Positions 50 to 7,994 of a stretch of 42,338 nucleotides of DNA are shown here, in pieces. The position numbers and the translations under genes were made by a program. The stretch is taken from UHGV virus genome UHGV-0127092. The stretch is one strand, 5' to 3'. The notes beneath the pieces are model-generated. The model ran no database searches and was not told the origin of the DNA. It saw nothing but the letters and a program-made list of their open reading frames with translations. This stretch comes from a virus. The stretch's first letter is position 1. Every line of letters begins with the position of its first letter.

Positions 50-598
50 TCAGCTAGCTGGAAACTTTTTATACAGAGTTGAGAGCCCTACTCCATACGT
101 TTTTGATACGCTTTGTCGTGATTCACCGGTTGCCATCCGCTCCCCCATTTCCCGCCATTGCTCATCCGTGAACTTAGGCCTGCGACCACCAACTCGCCAT
201 TTTGCCCTGGCTACGGCCAGCCCTGCTAAGGTACGTTCGCTATTAAGATCAGATTCATATTGTGCTGCGGAAAGGATGTTACGAAAGTTATAGCGGCCGC
301 TGGCTGTTTTGAGATCCACGCCATCGGTAATACTGCGGAAGTTGATACCCTTTTCCTGTAACTGCTGGAACATCAACAGCGCATGCAGAACGTTGCGGCC
401 TATCCTGTCCAGCTTCCACACCACCAGTGTATCGCCCGCATTCAGAGTCCGCAGAAGCTTTTTGAGCGCTGGCCGGTTCGCTACCGTCCCGCTCATTTTT
501 TCTTCAAAAACCTGTTCACATCCTGCGCGTTCGAGTGCTTGGCGCTGGAGATCTGTATTTTGGTCATTTGTTGACACCCTTACATAGCCAATTTGCAT
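50..598 (-). CDS. Serine recombinase, DNA invertase of the Hin/Gin/Pin/Cin family
   Basis: N-terminal MQIGYVRVSTNDQ catalytic-serine motif, LVVWKLDRIGR, C-terminal HTH (GLSTLYKKF), about 180 aa. Start moved from track 607 (GTG) to ATG at about 598, preceded by GGGTGA. Confidence 0.9.
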   Translation of the reverse strand: MQIGYVRVSTNDQNTDLQRQALERAGCEQVFEEKMSGTVANRPALKKLLRTLNAGDTLVVWKLDRIGRNVLHALLMFQQLQEKGINFRSITDGVDLKTASGRYNFRNILSAAQYESDLNSERTLAGLAVARAKWRVGGRRPKFTDEQWREMGERMATGESRQSVSKTYGVGLSTLYKKFPAS

Positions 599-603
599 AT
601 TTT

Positions 604-906
604 TCACCCAGTTATTTCTGCAAAAAAATCAGGTGAAGTTATCGGCCAGGCCGCTCGAGAGCAATCTATAAAACGTCCGTTTGGATTGAACATCAGCCAC
701 GTCTTGTCATCGCTGTGGTCTGTCGAAGCGTCACGGAAGCAACGGGAATAGCGTGCAATCCACTGATTCGCCTCTGCATTAGAAAGATGCCAGTTCACTT
801 TCTCCAGCTCTCTGACGAAATCAGACGTTCTCACAGACCTGCGGCCTGACCTTTCATGCACTATTGCTGCCCGGAAGGCTAGCTCCATATCTGAACGACG
901 CGGCAT
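604..906 (-). CDS. Hypothetical protein, candidate SOS-regulated gene translationally coupled to the invertase
   Basis: ORF on minus strand; stop TGA lies 5 nt upstream of the invertase ATG; LexA-box-like palindrome 19-38 nt upstream of the proposed ATG (MPRRSDMELAF...). Track start 948 would place the palindrome inside the ORF. No family recognised. Confidence 0.5.
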   Translation of the reverse strand: MPRRSDMELAFRAAIVHERSGRRSVRTSDFVRELEKVNWHLSNAEANQWIARYSRCFRDASTDHSDDKTWLMFNPNGRFIDCSRAAWPITSPDFFAEITG

Positions 907-1266: not shown

Positions 1267-2508
1267 TCACTTTTCGCCAAGCAATTTAATCAATGTGCGA
1301 AGTTCTTCAATCTCCCTTTGTTGATACTGAACAACTCCGAGAAGGTCCATTACTATGGGGTTAGTATCTACAGATGGGCGATCCCGGTACACTGGTTTAT
1401 AAGGTCGACCAACTTCATCAAGCTCACTGTCGCTGTATTCCGCCTCTGGGTCAATTTCACGGTTATGCTTTATGTATTGAGGCGCAACAAGCTCAGTTTC
1501 TTCCGCAATGATACCGAAACGGATCCTGTGCAGATCATCGTCAATATATTTAAAGTTAACCATCTTAAGCGACATTATTCGATTAAGAGCTTCTTTTAGA
1601 TCGGCTTCTGCAATGTCCTCTTTGTACTGCAGCCCAGATGTCCCCTGCAATGCAAGCGTTCCACTAGTATTAGGGAAATATACGGTCGTTGATCCAGTAG
1701 TAAGAGCGTCACCTCGTCTCCAAACATAAAGAGTACCCTCCTTTTGTTCCAGGCCTATTCGTTTGCCGATCACATCTCCAAGATTGTAGTCTCGTAAAAC
1801 CAAACTGGGATAATTCGCTGATGTAGTGAATCCTTCGTTAATTCCATATGCCGTTATTTTACTTGTAAAAGTTTTTAGTCCAGTTATTTCTTCTGTATTA
1901 TCTATCCCTACAGCTTTAATATTCTTTCTGGCATCAGTATCATTTTTGGCTCCAGTCCCTCCCATGCTTATTGGAATTAGCCCGGAACTATCAACTAATT
2001 CAAGATTTTTGCGAGCCTCAGCCGCTGTCTTTGCGCCGGTCCCCCCCTGGGCAATACTCAGTGCTGTAGTTAACCCTTTCAGCTCTGTGATATCGCTATT
2101 TGCCCCTTTGCGGGCGAGACCACCAATGGCCGGAATGCTGAGGCTGGTGCCGTTGATTGTCACAGTGACCAACTGGTTCGCTGAGGTGCTGGCGAACGTC
2201 TCCCATGCTCCAATGTTCTCGTCATACTCGTTAATGAGCTGCGACATACTTTGCGCCAGGCCATCGACGGAGAGGCTGTCGGTAACGAGGATGCCGTACT
2301 TCTGTCCGCTCAGTGCCGGTGACGCAGCTGGGGTAACGGTTAACGATGTGCCGCTGTTGATAGCGGTAATCTGAAACATCTGGACCGGGTTAGAGAGCAC
2401 AATAATGGTCTGGCTCACGCGAATCTGGCTGGCCGGTGCCGTCCAGTTTGTGCCCGTCCCGGTGGCGGTATTTCCATTAATGGCGATGGTGCCGGTGTTA
2501 TAAAGCAT
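1267..2508 (-). CDS. Side tail fiber protein with C-terminal intramolecular chaperone (peptidase S74-like) domain
   Basis: Repeated GGTGAK...ARKN motifs typical of tail fibers; C-terminal MSLKMVNFKYIDDD...GIIAEETELVAPQYIK...LLGVVQYQQREIEELRTLI resembles the endosialidase-chaperone domain. ATG at about 2508 preceded by GGAGA. Confidence 0.8.
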   Translation of the reverse strand: MLYNTGTIAINGNTATGTGTNWTAPASQIRVSQTIIVLSNPVQMFQITAINSGTSLTVTPAASPALSGQKYGILVTDSLSVDGLAQSMSQLINEYDENIGAWETFASTSANQLVTVTINGTSLSIPAIGGLARKGANSDITELKGLTTALSIAQGGTGAKTAAEARKNLELVDSSGLIPISMGGTGAKNDTDARKNIKAVGIDNTEEITGLKTFTSKITAYGINEGFTTSANYPSLVLRDYNLGDVIGKRIGLEQKEGTLYVWRRGDALTTGSTTVYFPNTSGTLALQGTSGLQYKEDIAEADLKEALNRIMSLKMVNFKYIDDDLHRIRFGIIAEETELVAPQYIKHNREIDPEAEYSDSELDEVGRPYKPVYRDRPSVDTNPIVMDLLGVVQYQQREIEELRTLIKLLGEK

Positions 2509-2523
2509 ATTTTCTCCAGGCAA

Positions 2524-2547
2524 TAAAAAAACCCCGCCGGAGCGAGG
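2524..2547 (-). terminator. Rho-independent terminator (minus strand) after the lipoprotein gene
   Basis: Minus-strand RNA CCUCGC-UCCG-GCGGGG followed by a U7 tract; read directly from sequence. Confidence 0.6.
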
Positions 2548-2568
2548 TTTATGTTTAAGCGTAGTGGG

Positions 2569-2802
2569 TTATTTGCAGGTTGTTTCGGTAAATGTATTCG
2601 CACTTACCCAGCGCCAGCTGAAAGGATATCCAGCCCGGTACTGCGTCTGGTTGTTTTGTTTACGCACACCGTAAATCTGAACCGTAGTTTCCTGACCGCC
2701 AACGATTGCAGTGCCGCTGCAAACTGGTTCCTGTTTCTCAATTACGCCAGCGCATCCTGTAAGCATGACAGCGCCTGCCATGCAGATAATCAGTTTTCTC
2801 AT
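2569..2802 (-). CDS. Small lipoprotein, possible Cor-like superinfection-exclusion protein (moron)
   Basis: 77 aa, signal peptide with lipobox LTGC, sits between the J-associated genes and the tail fiber gene with its own terminator. Cor assignment rests on size and context only. Confidence 0.6.
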   Translation of the reverse strand: MRKLIICMAGAVMLTGCAGVIEKQEPVCSGTAIVGGQETTVQIYGVRKQNNQTQYRAGYPFSWRWVSANTFTETTCK

Positions 2803-2913
2803 TTTGATAGTATCCAGAGGAATTCAGTATCTTAGACGATACCAATACAATTCTGGTGGGTATAATTGATTGGATAGATCAATATTATGTTATTGATCGC
2901 TAAAAACGATCAA

Positions 2914-3588
2914 TCAATCATAGGCCGCTGTATTTATGGCGGTTAATGAAATGCCAGTATTCGTTCCCCCTCCAGGTGAACCTGCCCCAGTGGAGGTCCC
3001 CCCTGCGTTTATCCTCGTATTGGCCCCGTCAAACCTGCATGAAGAATAAGCATTTATCGTGTAGATAGTCGGAGGCTGGGTTGAATTATTCACAATGATG
3101 GTCTGACCCAACTGAGCAGGTGCAACGGCCCATGACCCGCTCAGCGTCTGGTCAATATTTATCCCGCCGTTTGCACCAGGCGTGCCAACCGTCTGCAGGT
3201 CTGATAGCACACGGGACTCATTAGTTAACACAAGCTTTCCGCTCGCATCCCATATTGCCAAACCCCATTTCGGTAATATCTGCGGGAATATGGCAAAAAC
3301 GTACGCCGTTAAAGTGAAACTTTGGTTGTAGGGATTAACACCAGCAACATACACATTACCGCCGTTCCTGTAAGACATAACCGGAGTGGGCTGTGCTGTA
3401 TTGGTGGTTTTGATAAAAACCATCACTGGGTAATCAGCGTTTAAAGCGATATTTTGAGCAACCTGCTGAGAACTGCCATTCGCGGATGAATTGAAGGTAT
3501 ACTTCCCGTAAAGACAGAAAGGCGTTGATTGTGGCGTTACAAAGGGATTCCCGTTATCCATTAATATCATCGCGCCAAATTCGGCCAT
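2914..3588 (-). CDS. Hypothetical tail-associated protein (Gly/Thr/Asn-rich)
   Basis: 224-aa ORF translationally coupled (1-nt overlap) to the upstream 100-aa ORF, downstream of J. Confidence 0.5.
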   Translation of the reverse strand: MAEFGAMILMDNGNPFVTPQSTPFCLYGKYTFNSSANGSSQQVAQNIALNADYPVMVFIKTTNTAQPTPVMSYRNGGNVYVAGVNPYNQSFTLTAYVFAIFPQILPKWGLAIWDASGKLVLTNESRVLSDLQTVGTPGANGGINIDQTLSGSWAVAPAQLGQTIIVNNSTQPPTIYTINAYSSCRFDGANTRINAGGTSTGAGSPGGGTNTGISLTAINTAAYD

Positions 3589-3890
3589 TATGCTTTCTCC
3601 ATGAAAACGACCACCTCACATTTAGAGGCCGGGTAATTACCCAGGCCCACAGAAGAGGCTGCGGTTACGGTTATTGTGTTCCCTGACGCGACAATGCTCC
3701 TCCCTACGCTGTTACCTCCTTCATCAAGTGAGAGCGCAAAACCGACCTTCATTCCTGAGGGTACAGTGAAAGACCAGCTGCCGGAGTTTTGTCCGGCGGC
3801 AAGTTGTATACGTCCAACAACGGAAACGGGCTTGATTCCGTAGTTGTTGGGGTTTCCCGAAGCATCCCAGGTCTGTATTCCATAAGCCAT
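3588..3890 (-). CDS. Hypothetical tail-associated protein
   Basis: 100-aa ORF starting 2 nt after the J stop codon; tightly coupled to J. Confidence 0.5.
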   Translation of the reverse strand: MAYGIQTWDASGNPNNYGIKPVSVVGRIQLAAGQNSGSWSFTVPSGMKVGFALSLDEGGNSVGRSIVASGNTITVTAASSVGLGNYPASKCEVVVFMEKA

Positions 3891-3891
3891 A

Positions 3892-6800
3892 TCAGAACAC
3901 CCCCGTTAATCGGCCAACCTGCACTCTCAGAACGTTGTTGCCATCCTTGACGCTGATTGTCTGGTTGGTCTGCTTCATGGCTCCCTCCCCAGCTGTCGAA
4001 CCGTAGTTCTCAAACGTCCCGGACTTATCCAGTTTCCAGCCAACAGAGCCGGCAACATAATTGTTCGACTGGATGTAATTGCCAATTTTTGCATTGCTTA
4101 TGGTCCCGTCGCCAATGACTGTATCCCTGATAATGGCCTGGCCATTCTGGATAACGAACGGCAGTGTTACAGTCCCGCCGACCATAGTAGTCACGGCGAA
4201 ACGGTCTGCCAGGAAGATTACCTGTGACTGCATGCCGGAGGGTGTATTTTGAACCCCAATACCCATCCCGGCAGCGTAATACTGCCCGTTACTGGACACC
4301 CCCACCTTGATGTTATACATCGCGCTGAGGTTACCGTTTACATCTGCTATAGCCTGTGCGTTGACGTTTATCGCTGCACTGTTTTCGCCTGATTTAACAG
4401 TCAGAGTGTTGATTTTTGTTGCCGAAGCCTGGGTGAAATCAGCAAGAGTTTCTGTCAGGTCCGTTGAGTTAGAGATATTGCCACCAGCTTCTGCATCCAG
4501 TGTGACCAGCGCGCGTGCGACCGCCTGGCTGGTATCGGCAATCGTAGTATCCACTCTGTCTATACTGGCACTGTTCCCGGCGTTCGTGGCGGTCTGCGAG
4601 CGACGGCTTACCACCTGCGCCAGCCCATTCTGAATAATCGCGATTGCCGAGTTCTTCACTCCTCCCGTCATGCCGTCCATCGACACAGAAATCTCGTCGA
4701 TCTTCACTTCGGCCTGAGCCAGCCCGTCAGCGTTCTCCAGGATGTCTTTCGCTTGCTGCTCCAGTTCGTCGTTGGCCTGTTTGATATCGTTAGCCATGCC
4801 AGCAATTTTTTCATTGCTGTCCACAGCGTTCTCGATCAGGTCTTTGAACGTATCGGAGCCTTTCATGTCCTCCAGGATCACATCTGTGATGTCGGAAACA
4901 TCGATGCTGGCCTGTCCTCGCACCCATTCTGTGTACCCTGATTCGTTGCCGCTGCGGTCCACCAGCTGAGCGCGGTACCAGAAAATCTGCCCAGCCTTGA
5001 GGCCCATCTGCTGATATTTGCGCTGCGGATAAGGCACATCGGCCAGCAGCATTGCATCATCTTCGCTACCGGTCAGGCTGTACTGAATTTCCGTCTTCAG
5101 CGTGTCGTCGGTATTCGCCGGGAATCCCCAGTTCAGCTCGATGCCGAAATCCACATTTTCAGAAGCGATGAAGCCAACCGGCTTCGGTGGATTGCCCACT
5201 TTACCCGTAAGATTTACTTCTGGTGATGTCGCCCACACTGATGAAACGTCGCTGGCGTTCACCGCCCTGACGCGGACCAGATAGCGACCCGAGTAGATAC
5301 CCTGCACTTCAAAGCCGAGAGAAGACGTTCGTGGCACACTAATCCAGTTGCCGCTGTCACGCCGCCATTCCGCCTCGTACGCAACTGCACCCTGAACAGC
5401 ATCCCAGGCAACGCGCATGGTGGTAATCGCAATGTTCTGGTTAACCGTAGAGTAACTGTCTACGACGATATTTCCTGGGGGAGCCTGAACCCCTGGCGGA
5501 ATGACACTGACTGGCCGCTCGTCCAGTCTTGCGCCGGTATCAACAGCGGAATAGATATCAGGGTTGTAAGTCGTCCCGGTGACCTCGAAAGTACCGTCGT
5601 TGTTGTCCCGCGTTCCCGTAACACGGAAAAGCGCTATAAACAGATCGTCAGAGTCCACACCCCAGTTACATTCAGCCTCCGGCGTTTCGCTGTATGGTGT
5701 GGTGACAGTGACTGTGTTTCCGTTAACGGCCTGGACGGTTCTGGCCTGAGCTGTGCCTGACGGAAGATTCAAAAACAGCCTGTTACCGGCTTTCACATCA
5801 GCAGCGCGATCGAGGGTTATGTTGCGGCCGTTAACCGCACTCACCCTGCCGCCGATAGTTCTTCCGGCCAGCTCGTTAGCAGCCACGCCGATCACCTCAC
5901 CAACAGGGGGGACGTCCATGCCTGTGCTGAAGGTCACCACCTCGCCGATACCGTTGGTAAGCAGCGCCCAGCGCCCCCGCCGGTTTGCCTCTGACTGCCT
6001 GGTGCAGCCGATCGCAGTCATTTCGAGCTGACGATAATCGAAGCGCATGGCCAGATCGCTATCGTAAACAGGCTCAGGCGTATCTTTGTAGTGGTTGGCA
6101 GGGTCTGACCAGTTCACCAGCGCGGCAGTGTTTCGGGTGGTTTCACTCGGGTCCGCAAAGGTAAATTTACCCTCAACTACGCTGGCGTGGTTATAGATAT
6201 GCCACACATCGCGGGGCATATCAGCCAGGACATACATCTTATTGTCACCCCAGTACGTCATGCCGCGAAATATACCCGCCAGATCACGAAGTACGGTCCA
6301 GGCGTCATTACGGTCCTGGATATAAACGTTGCAACGAAAACGCGGCTCCGTCCCGCTGCCGCCCTTGCCGTCTGGTACCAGCTGATCGCAATACTGGGCG
6401 ATGCGATAAAGTTCCCACTTGTCTATCTGAGTCGCATCGATTCTTTGCCCCAGCCCGAAACGCTCGTTCAGAATGATGTCGTAATAAATCCAGGCTGGGT
6501 TATCCGTCCATGCCCATTTAAACACACCTTCCCATGTACCAGAGTAAGTGCGGGTTTCAGGATCGTAGGTATCAGGTACACGGATGATTCTCCCCTTCGG
6601 ATTGCACACAACCTGAGGAATGCCATTAGGGAACTGCTTTGCGTCAAACTCTACATACAGCAGCGCTGTGTTAACGTAGCGAAGTTTGGCGTCAATAATT
6701 TCAGTTACAGCTACAACGCGCATGGTGTCCACGATATTCACGCTCGTGGAATCCGGCGTGATTCTGCGAACCCGTAACTGCCAGCCAGTCGAGGATTTTG

Positions 6801-7353
6801 GAAGGTTAACGCGGTGACTGCGCTCATAAAGCGACGTGGTTTTGTCATCGACAGCACCGTTAACCACCGTTTCATACGGCCCGCCATCTACCGACAGATC
6901 GATAGCATACTCGACGCGGGTGCCGACTTTGTCGCCGTTGTTTTTCTGGAGCAAGAGAGTTGGCCATCCCAGGCGAATTCGCAGCGCAGAGAGCTGCGTG
7001 TTGGATACCGCGCGCACGTACGGCACAGCCTGTTTCAGCTCGTATGAAACCTGAAGTTCGTTTTCAATGCCGGGGAAGCCCTGAATGTAGTCCTGGTCCT
7101 GAGTACCGGAACGGAACTCATATTTCACATTATTGAAGTTATAACTTCCGTCGGCGTTCTGAAGAGGCGTGTACGAAGATGAGTCACCAAGAAAAATGTT
7201 TTTACCATCAAGCCCGCCAGCGAACTCACCCTCTCCAAGCGCAATCAGCACCTTTGCCCTTGCAATGGACTGAATGCTGTCCGGTGCTTCAACGGGTGTT
7301 CGGGTCTGATTGCTGCCACCTTTACCGCGGCCTTTGATGATCGTCGTCGTCAT
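3892..7353 (-). CDS. J: Host specificity protein J (central tail fiber / tail tip)
   Basis: 1153 aa; conserved lambda gpJ blocks (TEIID, NTAL, YSGTWEG.FK.AW, DKWELYRIAQYCDQLVPDGKGG..EPRF.CNVY); follows the I-K-L-M genes. Confidence 0.9.
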   Translation of the reverse strand: MTTTIIKGRGKGGSNQTRTPVEAPDSIQSIARAKVLIALGEGEFAGGLDGKNIFLGDSSSYTPLQNADGSYNFNNVKYEFRSGTQDQDYIQGFPGIENELQVSYELKQAVPYVRAVSNTQLSALRIRLGWPTLLLQKNNGDKVGTRVEYAIDLSVDGGPYETVVNGAVDDKTTSLYERSHRVNLPKSSTGWQLRVRRITPDSTSVNIVDTMRVVAVTEIIDAKLRYVNTALLYVEFDAKQFPNGIPQVVCNPKGRIIRVPDTYDPETRTYSGTWEGVFKWAWTDNPAWIYYDIILNERFGLGQRIDATQIDKWELYRIAQYCDQLVPDGKGGSGTEPRFRCNVYIQDRNDAWTVLRDLAGIFRGMTYWGDNKMYVLADMPRDVWHIYNHASVVEGKFTFADPSETTRNTAALVNWSDPANHYKDTPEPVYDSDLAMRFDYRQLEMTAIGCTRQSEANRRGRWALLTNGIGEVVTFSTGMDVPPVGEVIGVAANELAGRTIGGRVSAVNGRNITLDRAADVKAGNRLFLNLPSGTAQARTVQAVNGNTVTVTTPYSETPEAECNWGVDSDDLFIALFRVTGTRDNNDGTFEVTGTTYNPDIYSAVDTGARLDERPVSVIPPGVQAPPGNIVVDSYSTVNQNIAITTMRVAWDAVQGAVAYEAEWRRDSGNWISVPRTSSLGFEVQGIYSGRYLVRVRAVNASDVSSVWATSPEVNLTGKVGNPPKPVGFIASENVDFGIELNWGFPANTDDTLKTEIQYSLTGSEDDAMLLADVPYPQRKYQQMGLKAGQIFWYRAQLVDRSGNESGYTEWVRGQASIDVSDITDVILEDMKGSDTFKDLIENAVDSNEKIAGMANDIKQANDELEQQAKDILENADGLAQAEVKIDEISVSMDGMTGGVKNSAIAIIQNGLAQVVSRRSQTATNAGNSASIDRVDTTIADTSQAVARALVTLDAEAGGNISNSTDLTETLADFTQASATKINTLTVKSGENSAAINVNAQAIADVNGNLSAMYNIKVGVSSNGQYYAAGMGIGVQNTPSGMQSQVIFLADRFAVTTMVGGTVTLPFVIQNGQAIIRDTVIGDGTISNAKIGNYIQSNNYVAGSVGWKLDKSGTFENYGSTAGEGAMKQTNQTISVKDGNNVLRVQVGRLTGVF

Positions 7354-7406
7354 ATCGCGTCCATAAAAGAAGCCACCGTCAGGTGGCTTGAAATGGGTAG
7401 TTTGGT

Positions 7407-7994
7407 TTATTGCTGATCTTCTGCATAAATCCCGGCTGAGATAATCGCACCGCCTATTTCCCTCTGTCCGTAAAGCAAAGGAACGGGGTTACCGGATGCC
7501 GTAGTATTGACGGGTCCGCCAAACGCATAGGAAGGCTTATTATCTGGGTCCTGTCGCATCCTCAGACCAGCAACCTGAGGGGAAAGCATTTGCACTACAC
7601 CACCCACAGCCATAGAACCAGCTGCGGCATATAGCGCCATTTGTGTACCTGCTGCCCATCCTATTGGGTTCCACCAGGTAAAAGCCGCAATTGCGGCGGC
7701 AGTAACAATTTGAAAGAGGCCCGCCCTTTTACTGCCGCGTATTACAGGGATAATGCGAAGTTCATCGCCAGGTCCAAGAAGATCAAACTCTTCCTTTCCT
7801 ATGTTTATTTGGTTTCGGAAGATGACAAAGTCCAGCCCCTTCGCTCTGGTCTCACGCAGGTAGGCATCAAATCCATCAATTGTGTTAGATAGCGCCCTGA
7901 ATACCTCACTGGCAGACGTTAACGCGCGGCGGTGGGTCCTGCCAAATCGCTGAGCCATTGAACCGCTGAGTTTGATAACGGTTTTTCTTTCCAT
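7407..7994 (-). CDS. I: Tail assembly protein I
   Basis: Lambda gpI-like: RFGR near N-terminus, hydrophobic Gly/Ala-rich core, C-terminal PVPLLYGQREIGG motif. Confidence 0.8.
   Translation of the reverse strand: MERKTVIKLSGSMAQRFGRTHRRALTSASEVFRALSNTIDGFDAYLRETRAKGLDFVIFRNQINIGKEEFDLLGPGDELRIIPVIRGSKRAGLFQIVTAAAIAAFTWWNPIGWAAGTQMALYAAAGSMAVGGVVQMLSPQVAGLRMRQDPDNKPSYAFGGPVNTTASGNPVPLLYGQREIGGAIISAGIYAEDQQ

What the first reader, a model, noticed from the sequence alone, without database searches (positions are those of the whole stretch)
2914..3890. Two unknown proteins translationally coupled to J, between J and the lipoprotein moron
A 100-aa and a 224-aa ORF follow J with 1-2-nt junctions; both are Gly/Ser/Thr/Asn-rich like receptor-interacting tail proteins. 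They occupy the position of lom/stf-associated accessory genes in lambda and may contribute to host range.
Basis: inference. Interest (0 to 1): 0.35.

Follow-up and report, generated by a model that had tools for sequence, protein, structure and literature searches.

The report
Tail-tip receptor module after J
The two small genes after the tail-tip gene J are real, conserved phage genes (phi80 gp22/gp23 family) that most likely form the detachable tip that recognises the FhuA receptor; others have already proposed this, and it has never been shown by experiment.

Summary
On the minus strand a 100-aa ORF (3588..3890) and a 224-aa ORF (2914..3588) follow J. There is a 1-nt spacer after J, and the two ORFs overlap by 1 nt (TAATG). 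Both are under purifying selection (dN/dS 0.05-0.12).

The window is phage mEp237 (99.9% identical). The ORFs are phi80/N15 gp22 and gp23, T1 ST32/ST31, PHROG 557/425.

They are not membrane proteins, despite their database names. There is no signal peptide or transmembrane segment, and the AF2 models are soluble beta-sandwiches.

J here lacks the C-terminal receptor-binding domain of lambda and HK97 J. It ends in a 45-aa tail that is co-conserved with the pair (73% identical to T1 J there, 34% just upstream).

The pair co-occurs almost one-to-one in about 350 phage records, next to the FhuA-blocking lipoprotein Cor. In the literature it is found only in FhuA-dependent phages.

Best reading: a detachable FhuA-recognition module, with gp23-like as the RBP and gp22-like as adaptor or chaperone. 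This has been proposed in silico since 2021-2026 and is untested. It is ordinary in kind; interest is modest.

The parts
3588..3890 (-). 100-aa gene, homologue of phi80/N15 gp22 and T1 ST32 (PHROG 557). Single beta-sandwich. Probable adaptor or chaperone of the tip module.
2914..3588 (-). 224-aa gene, homologue of phi80/N15 gp23 and T1 ST31 (PHROG 425). Two-lobed all-beta fold. Probable FhuA receptor-binding protein.
3892..4029 (-). Last 45 codons plus stop codon of J: a conserved C-terminal tail that replaces the receptor-binding domain of lambda/HK97 J. Proposed docking platform for the two proteins.
   Evidence: Identity to T1 J is 73% in the last 45 aa against 34% in residues -200..-76. 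Identity to the LptD-type Oekolampad J is 27% in the last 45 aa. Lambda and HK97 J continue about 110-150 aa further.
3120..3220 (-). Recombination breakpoint zone inside the 224-aa gene (about aa 123-156). It separates a J-proximal part from a C-terminal part that travels with cor.
   Evidence: phi80 and HK022 are about 100% nt-identical from window 4320 to 3220, then 36-78%. mEp237 and mEp043 are 99-100% identical from 3119 to 2530. For aa 151-224, {mEp237, phi80, mEp043} share 91-99% against 51-53% to HK022. This mirrors cor, at 100% against 79%.
2569..2802 (-). cor: a superinfection-exclusion lipoprotein that blocks FhuA. It is the cognate exclusion gene of the module and a moron with its own promoter in phi80.
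   Evidence: NCBIfam lamb_exclu_cor at 9e-42. PHROG 1119 at 7e-37. Promoter, transcription start site and terminator are annotated in phi80 FN582354. Terminator-like hairpin at 2550..2529.

Best explanation
The two ORFs encode the distal, separable receptor-recognition module of the tail tip of a FhuA-dependent lambdoid phage (mEp237).

J here carries no receptor-binding domain of its own. It ends in a short conserved tail.

The 224-aa protein (gp23-like) is the receptor-binding protein. Its conserved N-terminal ~27 residues and its conserved central segment (aa 91-150) attach it to the end of the J trimer, possibly together with the 100-aa protein. Its variable, well-folded beta-sandwich surfaces, above all the exchangeable C-terminal ~70-100 residues, contact FhuA.

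The 100-aa protein (gp22-like) is made in fixed proportion through the overlapping stop/start. It is an obligatory partner: either an adaptor between the three-fold J tip and the single RBP, or an assembly chaperone.

Cor, transcribed separately just downstream, then shuts FhuA against related phages.

Shown here: gene reality and selection, family membership, lack of membrane features, the truncated and co-conserved J tail, the fold match to a solved RBP, co-occurrence and mosaic boundaries.

Inferred: presence in the virion, docking on J, FhuA binding, and the division of labour between the two proteins.
For: (1) Same operon and strand as J, with a 1-nt spacer and a 1-nt overlap. The ORF1/ORF2 overlap is conserved in 7 of 7 phages (in mEp043 with my GTG start rather than the annotated one), whereas cor is on the opposite strand in T1 and Teewinot.

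(2) J lacks the 110-150-aa C-terminal RBD of lambda and HK97. HK97, a LamB user by my own knowledge (Cumby 2015), has neither ORF nor cor.

(3) The last 45 aa of J are co-conserved with the pair across lambdoid phages and T1: 73% against 34% upstream, and only 27% in the LptD-type Oekolampad J.

(5) The N-terminal motif is shared with that RBP family: FGAMILMDNGNP against AGILIDYNDGRP, hhalign P 9e-4.

(6) ORF1 and ORF2 relatives occur in 346 and 350 phage records with the same genus counts for the commonest genera.

(7) Literature. All 10 BASEL phages with the pair use FhuA (PMC13164509). The locus allele predicts the receptor (PMC8594841; bioRxiv 10.64898/2026.04.02.716166). AF2-multimer places the JLBYU60 homologue as a monomer on the J trimer and against FhuA (PMC12309495). 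mEp237 is excluded by Cor+ lysogens (PMC9311878).

(8) In the conservation map, the conserved segments are those with low monomer confidence and the variable segments are confidently folded. Breakpoints fall at a domain boundary.
Against: There is no experimental evidence for any family member: no virion proteomics, no binding assay and no solved structure.

The T1 cryo-EM structure did not resolve the J C-terminus or anything beyond it (PMC11945409).

Sequence similarity to the solved RBP family (DUF6453) is not significant overall (hhalign E 0.044; no Pfam hit). The link therefore rests on a predicted structure, a short motif and position.

The motif windows were chosen after looking at the sequences, so their P-values are nominal.

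The 100-aa protein is more conserved than expected for a receptor contact, and its role is open.

Linkage of the ORF2 C-terminus with cor could simply reflect adjacency, and it is based on four phages.

The conserved J tail could itself contact FhuA.
Confidence: 0.65

Rival explanations
1. Both proteins are assembly factors for the J tip or the side fibres. They would work like lambda Tfa or intramolecular chaperones: needed to build a functional tip but absent from the virion. The conserved J tail would then be the real FhuA binder.
For: The 100-aa protein is very conserved (78% mean column identity). The J tail is co-conserved with the pair. T1 cryo-EM saw no extra density. No proteomic evidence of presence in the virion was found.
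Confidence: 0.15
2. They are membrane proteins that work with Cor in superinfection exclusion. [quoted passage not shown]
For: They are always next to cor and are found only in FhuA users (PMC13164509). PHROG and RefSeq names say so.
Against: There is no signal peptide, lipobox or TM segment: maximum 19-residue Kyte-Doolittle hydropathy is 1.14 and 1.18, against 2.02 for Cor. The AF2 models are soluble beta-sandwiches. The genes sit in the late tail operon abutting J, while cor has its own promoter and is on the opposite strand in T1 and Teewinot. Membrane-affinity estimates for homologues are low (PMC12309495). Lysogens need Cor, not late genes.
Confidence: 0.05
3. They are virion tip proteins, but they recognise something other than FhuA, such as an LPS core sugar. 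The lectin-like fold would fit this. They would serve as a first or auxiliary receptor step, while another component engages FhuA.
Against: The lectin matches are weak and are generic beta-sandwich hits. The allele at this locus tracks the protein receptor without exception in the published screens. The best structural relative binds a protein receptor.
Confidence: 0.1

Closest known systems
phi80 gp22/gp23, N15 gp22/gp23, HK022p24/p25, T1 ST32/ST31 (PHROG 557 and 425)
   Same: Same family by sequence: 94% and 91.5% aa identity to phi80, 57% and 55% to T1. Same lengths, same order after J, same 1-nt overlap, same neighbouring cor.
   Different: Nothing essential. mEp237 carries a mosaic: an ORF2 C-terminus and cor of the phi80/mEp043 type, with a J tail, ORF1 and ORF2 N-terminus that are 6-9% diverged from phi80 and HK022.
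LptD-binding RBP of small siphophages (Oekolampad bas18_0025 / Rtp44; Pfam DUF6453; PDB 9RPT)
   Different: One protein of 321 aa instead of 100 + 224, encoded on the opposite strand. The receptor is LptDE, not FhuA. No significant overall sequence similarity. A different J tail (27% identity in the last 45 aa).
T5 pb5 plus Llp
   Same: Same logic: a single-copy RBP, encoded separately from the trimeric central fibre, binds FhuA, and a small lipoprotein blocks FhuA from the periplasmic side (PMC9586334; PMC12685063).
C-terminal receptor-binding domain of lambda / HK97 J
   Same: Same job at the same physical place, the very tip of the central fibre.
Lambda Lom
   Same: Occupies the slot between J and stf.
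   Different: Lom is a signal-peptide outer-membrane beta-barrel moron. These proteins have no export signal, are not morons and have an unrelated fold.

Membership tests
phi80 gp22 / T1 ST32 family (PHROG 557) | Full-length sequence match to the family profile, about 100 aa | tested here: met
   PHROG 557 at E 3.1e-36, residues 1-99 on profile positions 1-100 of 100. 160 relatives, mostly exactly 100 aa.
phi80 gp22 / T1 ST32 family (PHROG 557) | Lies between the J homologue and a gp23-like gene, with stop/start overlap | tested here: met
   The overlap with the next gene is seen in 7 of 7 phages (in mEp043 with a GTG start that differs from the annotation).
phi80 gp23 / T1 ST31 family (PHROG 425) | Full-length sequence match to the family profile, about 212-230 aa | tested here: met
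   PHROG 425 at E 1.3e-80, residues 1-224 on profile positions 1-224 of 224. 123 clusters in 1.84 billion representatives, nearly all stand-alone proteins of 205-240 aa.
'Bona fide RBP locus' downstream of gpJ (Maffei et al. 2021) | Directly downstream of a J homologue that lacks its own receptor-binding domain | tested here: met
'Bona fide RBP locus' downstream of gpJ (Maffei et al. 2021) | Accompanied by a cognate superinfection-exclusion lipoprotein | tested here: met
   Cor at 2569..2802, NCBIfam 9e-42.
'Bona fide RBP locus' downstream of gpJ (Maffei et al. 2021) | The allele matches the phage's terminal receptor | tested here: inconclusive
   From the literature only. All 10 BASEL phages with the pair use FhuA. 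T1, phi80, N15 and HK022 use FhuA. mEp237 is excluded by Cor+ lysogens. HK97, which uses LamB by my own knowledge, lacks the pair. No direct receptor assay for mEp237 was read.
'Bona fide RBP locus' downstream of gpJ (Maffei et al. 2021) | The protein is in the virion and binds the receptor | not testable with these tools
   No proteomic, binding or structural data found for this family.
DUF6453 (PF20051), LptD-type RBP | Match to the Pfam model or a family profile | tested here: not met
   No Pfam hit at E <= 0.1. hhalign of the two family alignments gives E 0.044, probability 1.2%.
DUF6453 (PF20051), LptD-type RBP | Same fold | tested here: met
Outer-membrane / membrane-associated protein (database names) | Signal peptide, lipobox, TM helix or beta-barrel | tested here: not met
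   Maximum 19-residue hydropathy is 1.14 and 1.18. N-termini are MAYGIQTWDASG and MAEFGAMILMDN. Cor scores 2.02 and has a lipobox. The models are compact beta-sandwiches.
Lom-like moron | Own promoter and terminator, exported outer-membrane barrel, expressed in the lysogen | tested here: not met
   The genes abut J with no spacer for a promoter, and there is no export signal. The promoter-like sites found lie after the ORF2 stop and would serve cor.

The most novel reading that the evidence does not exclude
The 100-aa protein and the two halves of the 224-aa protein would be three diverged copies of one ~100-residue beta-sandwich module. Each copy opens with a G-x3-(W)D-x2-G hairpin. Together, as a 1:1 heterodimer, they would form a pseudo-three-fold cap on the trimeric J tail. 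This would resolve the 3-to-1 symmetry mismatch between the fibre and monomeric FhuA. The 321-aa LptD-type RBP (about 100 + 224) would be the fused single-chain version. If so, the supposedly 'unrelated' RBP alleles of small siphophages and lambdoid phages share one plug-in interface, and that interface could be exploited to retarget phages.

Evidence so far:
- The motif is shared between the ORF1 N-terminus and the ORF2 centre (P 1.6e-6).
- The motif is weakly shared with both positions in DUF6453 (P 9e-4 and 4e-3).
- The strand order is colinear.
- Both models hit the same trimer-forming H-type lectins.

Against it: all other domain-to-domain profile comparisons are non-significant, and no multimer model could be run.
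Probability: 0.15. Interest if true: 0.6.

Novelty: already known. Interest (0 to 1): 0.3.

Why it matters
T1 and phi80 have been known since the 1940s-70s to need FhuA (TonA) and TonB. Even so, the phage protein that touches FhuA has never been identified by experiment. This gene pair is the prime candidate.

If confirmed, it would give a small soluble RBP for structural work on energy-dependent (TonB-coupled) phage adsorption. It would explain how receptor specificity and its matching exclusion gene move together between temperate and virulent phages. It would also offer a compact cassette (J tail + two genes + cor) for retargeting phages.

[quoted passage not shown] The FhuA-type protein shares a fold and an N-terminal motif with the solved LptD-type RBP.

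Tried and rejected
- Pfam and NCBIfam gave nothing for either ORF.
- Sequence searches of the PDB with both family profiles gave nothing usable: 0 hits for one, and one hit at E 0.38 for the other.
- A profile-profile link between the ORF2 family and DUF6453 was not significant overall. The same held for ORF1 against DUF6453.
- I tested the internal-repeat, three-module idea by hhalign of sub-alignments. Only ORF1 against the ORF2 C-half reached P 5e-5, driven by the short motif. All other pairs had P 0.01-0.4. The idea is therefore kept only as speculation.
- The 1794-aa repeat protein P0462 hit by the ORF2 profile looks like a repeat-amplified chance match.
- Rfam found nothing above threshold in 2400-4100.
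- The small plus-strand ORFs of 40-55 aa inside the region have no support and lie antisense to genes under purifying selection.
- A literature search for virion proteomics or host-range mutations of this family found none. Wietzorrek 2006 (PMC1367250) is not held.
No multimer prediction tool was available.

Full report
**Observation.**
- On the minus strand, J (3892..7353, 1153 aa; Pfam FNIII-A_GpJ, Phage-tail_3 and Phage_Tail_Tip) ends in TGA. One base later comes the ATG of a 100-aa ORF (3588..3890).
- The TAA of that ORF shares a base with the ATG of a 224-aa ORF (2914..3588).
- Both starts have Shine-Dalgarno-like sequences 7-9 nt upstream.
- Downstream lie a 111-nt spacer and then the lipoprotein gene 2569..2802. 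This gene is Cor, the FhuA-blocking exclusion protein (NCBIfam 9e-42).
- Next comes a side tail fibre gene with a Peptidase_S74 chaperone domain.
- G+S+T+N content is 39% in both ORFs against 30.5% in J.

**Are the genes real, and what are they?**
- The window is phage mEp237: 99.9% nt identity over 2500-4000, with HK225 and HK140 at 99% and phi80 at 88.7%.
- In the curated phi80 record the two genes are gp22 (100 aa) and gp23 (224 aa).
- The same pair is N15 gp22/gp23, HK022p24/p25 and T1 ST32/ST31. It also occurs in Dhillonvirus phages such as Teewinot.
- PHROG 557 and 425 match at 3e-36 and 1e-80 over their full lengths. Pfam and NCBIfam have no model for either.
- All seven copies compared are intact. 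dN/dS is 0.05-0.12 wherever dS is not saturated.
- tblastn finds the small protein in 346 phage records and the large one in 350. The genus counts match for the commonest genera: 178 Escherichia, 111 Klebsiella, 22 'Enterobacteria', 8 Shigella and so on. The two genes are therefore an obligate pair.
- An exhaustive HMMER scan of 1.84 billion representatives finds 123 clusters. Nearly all are stand-alone proteins of 205-240 aa.

- Neither has a signal peptide, lipobox or hydrophobic segment. The maximum 19-residue hydropathy is 1.14 and 1.18, against 2.02 for Cor.
- The AF2 models are compact all-beta proteins (pLDDT 82.9 and 85.7, pTM 0.69 and 0.83).
- The suggestion in the KanT1 paper that they assist Cor in exclusion (PMC13164509) is therefore unlikely.
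- It is made less likely still by gene layout. The pair stays co-directional with J, while cor has its own promoter in phi80 and lies on the opposite strand in T1 and Teewinot.

**J lacks a receptor-binding domain.**
- I aligned the last 110-200 residues of J from the window, phi80, HK022, T1, Oekolampad, HK97 and lambda. Lambda and HK97 J run on for about 110-150 residues after the conserved GW(K/R)L-K-G motif. That extension is the LamB-binding domain of lambda J (established knowledge).
- J of this window, phi80, HK022 and T1 stops 45 residues after the motif.
- Those 45 residues are 73% identical between mEp237 and T1, although the preceding 125 residues are only 34% identical. The LptD-using Oekolampad J is 27% identical there.
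- HK97 has no gp22, gp23 or cor; stf follows J directly.
- So the J tail, the two genes and cor form one module that moves between temperate and virulent phages.

**Fold.**
- That RBP (321 aa, Pfam DUF6453) is encoded immediately after J in Oekolampad, next to a 73-aa gene that by analogy with Rtp45 is its exclusion lipoprotein. It was shown by cryo-EM and mutants to bind LptD. Its tail-proximal part is disordered in the map (PMC12685063).
- Overall sequence similarity between the two families is not significant.
- Their N-termini, however, are each family's most conserved stretch, and they resemble each other: FGAMILMDNGNP against AGILIDYNDGRP, hhalign P 9e-4 on N-terminal windows. I chose those windows after seeing the sequences.
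- In my model the first 20 residues are the least confident (pLDDT 51-53) although they are among the most conserved. This is what one expects of a segment that orders only on a partner.
- BFVD holds 18 structural relatives (E <= 1e-3, TM 0.4-0.64). They are uncharacterised proteins of 200-310 aa from Xanthomonas, Pectobacterium, Acinetobacter, Proteus and Pseudomonas phages. The fold is therefore widespread.

**Conservation map and mosaicism.**
- In the 224-aa family the conserved blocks are aa 11-30, 91-150 and 211-224. These include the parts with the lowest monomer confidence.
- The variable blocks are aa 31-90 and 161-210. These are confidently folded.
- The 100-aa family is much more uniform (0.75 against 1.27 bits mean entropy; 78% against 61% mean column identity).
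- Sliding-window nucleotide identity shows a breakpoint inside the large gene. phi80 and HK022 are about 100% identical from the last ~140 codons of J through ORF1 to about codon 120 of ORF2, then fall to 36-78%. mEp237 and mEp043 are 99-100% identical from about codon 156 of ORF2 through cor.
- The C-terminal 74 residues form two alleles that follow the cor alleles. {mEp237, phi80, mEp043} share 91-99%, with cor at 100%. Against HK022 the figures are 51-53% and 79%.
- This fits a J-proximal attachment part and a distal exchangeable part inherited with the cognate exclusion gene. With four phages and adjacent genes, though, it is only suggestive.

**Link to FhuA.** This rests on the literature.
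- Maffei et al. matched alleles of the locus downstream of gpJ to terminal receptors without exception (PMC8594841).
- In BASEL, all 10 phages that carry the pair use FhuA (PMC13164509).
- Matusiak et al. modelled the JLBYU60 homologues. They found that AF2-Multimer prefers the 23-kDa 'hand-like' protein, as a monomer, capping the J trimer and contacting FhuA (PMC12309495).
- mEp237 itself is reported to be excluded by Cor-producing mEp167 lysogens (PMC9311878 citing Uc-Mass 2004).
- None of these papers, nor the T1 cryo-EM structure, which lost the J C-terminus (PMC11945409), shows either protein in a virion or bound to FhuA.
- The PDB holds no sequence relative.

**Mechanism proposed.**
- J supplies the hub and fibre and ends in a docking tail.
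- The 224-aa protein is the FhuA-binding tip. It is attached through its N-terminus and conserved centre.
- The 100-aa protein is co-translated with it. It is an adaptor or chaperone.
- Cor blocks FhuA in lysogens.
- I put 0.65 on the module being the virion's receptor-recognition device with the large protein as RBP.
- The rivals are: assembly factors with J as the true binder (0.15), an auxiliary glycan-binding role (0.10) and an exclusion-related membrane role (0.05).

**A speculative extension.**
- A G-x3-WD-x2-G motif opens the 100-aa protein (YGIQTWDASG) and the second half of the 224-aa protein (WGLAIWDASG). hhalign gives P 1.6e-6 for this pair.
- A looser version opens the 224-aa protein itself and occurs at two positions in DUF6453.
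- The strand order of the 100-aa model parallels each half of the 224-aa model.
- 100 + 224 is about 321 residues, the length of the LptD-type RBP.
- The three modules might therefore form a pseudo-three-fold cap on the J trimer.
- The remaining domain-to-domain profile comparisons are not significant, and no multimer model could be made. I give this 0.15.

**Verdict.**
- The genes are already deposited, belong to a well-populated family, and have been proposed several times in print as the FhuA-specific RBP module.
  - the fold and N-terminal-motif link to the solved LptD-type RBP, a link the 2026 KanT1 analysis reported as absent;
  - the co-conserved truncated J tail;
  - rejection of the 'membrane protein' names;
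  - a breakpoint map.
- The open experimental question, which protein of T1/phi80-type phages binds FhuA, remains worth answering. It is not newly raised by this finding.

Noticed in passing
window 50..607 (-), next to 1267..2523 (-): A serine recombinase/invertase gene (Pfam Resolvase 1e-38 plus HTH_7) sits just beyond the side tail fibre gene, which carries a Peptidase_S74 chaperone domain. This is the arrangement of Gin/Cin/Pin-type fibre-switching systems, but no invertible segment or inverted repeats were looked for.
   Followed up: partly
window 2530..2819 (cor and its flanks): cor is about 100% nucleotide-identical to phi80 and mEp043 (dS 0), while the adjacent 224-aa gene has dS 0.9 to phi80. 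This indicates a recent exchange of the cor moron, with one breakpoint inside the 224-aa gene at about 3120-3220.
   Followed up: yes
window 7370..7389 (-), between I (7407..7994) and J: A terminator-like hairpin lies in the I-J spacer, at the place where phi80 carries the lipoprotein moron MorF with its own promoter and terminator. It is possibly a remnant or an empty moron site.
   Followed up: no
L010:6001-6639 and proteins P0043, P0047, P0052, P0055, P0057, P0060: Enterobacter chromosomes hold decayed prophages. In the one locus I read (L010), only int, a repressor, a cro-like gene, the 3' two-thirds of the 224-aa gene, cor and stf remain. Several such proteins have unrelated N-termini joined at the same point (...NQSFTLTAY). 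Whether this reflects one ancestral deletion or a recombination hot spot was not resolved.
   Followed up: partly
protein P0388 (337 aa): An ORF joins the FNIII region of a J protein directly to residues 53-224 of a gp23-like protein. This is probably a deletion in a defective prophage, not a natural J-RBP fusion. Its context was not examined.
   Followed up: no
phage records MG065637, MG065687, MG065641, MG065648 and four more: Eight records labelled 'Campylobacter phage' carry this E. coli T1-like J-gp22-gp23 locus at 50-69% protein identity to the window, the same level as coliphages. They look like mislabelled or contaminant assemblies.
   Followed up: no
window about 2893..2913 (-), just after the stop of the 224-aa gene: An inverted repeat, TTGATCG-N7-CGATCAA, sits immediately after the stop codon and overlaps a promoter-like site found in the scan. 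It has no T-run, so it is not a typical terminator. It could be an operator or RNA hairpin ahead of cor.
   Followed up: no
RefSeq/PHROG annotation of window 2914..3890: The names 'outer membrane protein' (PHROG 557) and 'membrane associated protein' (PHROG 425, filed under 'moron, auxiliary metabolic gene and host takeover') have propagated to hundreds of phage records. They have no support in the sequence or the predicted structure.
   Followed up: yes
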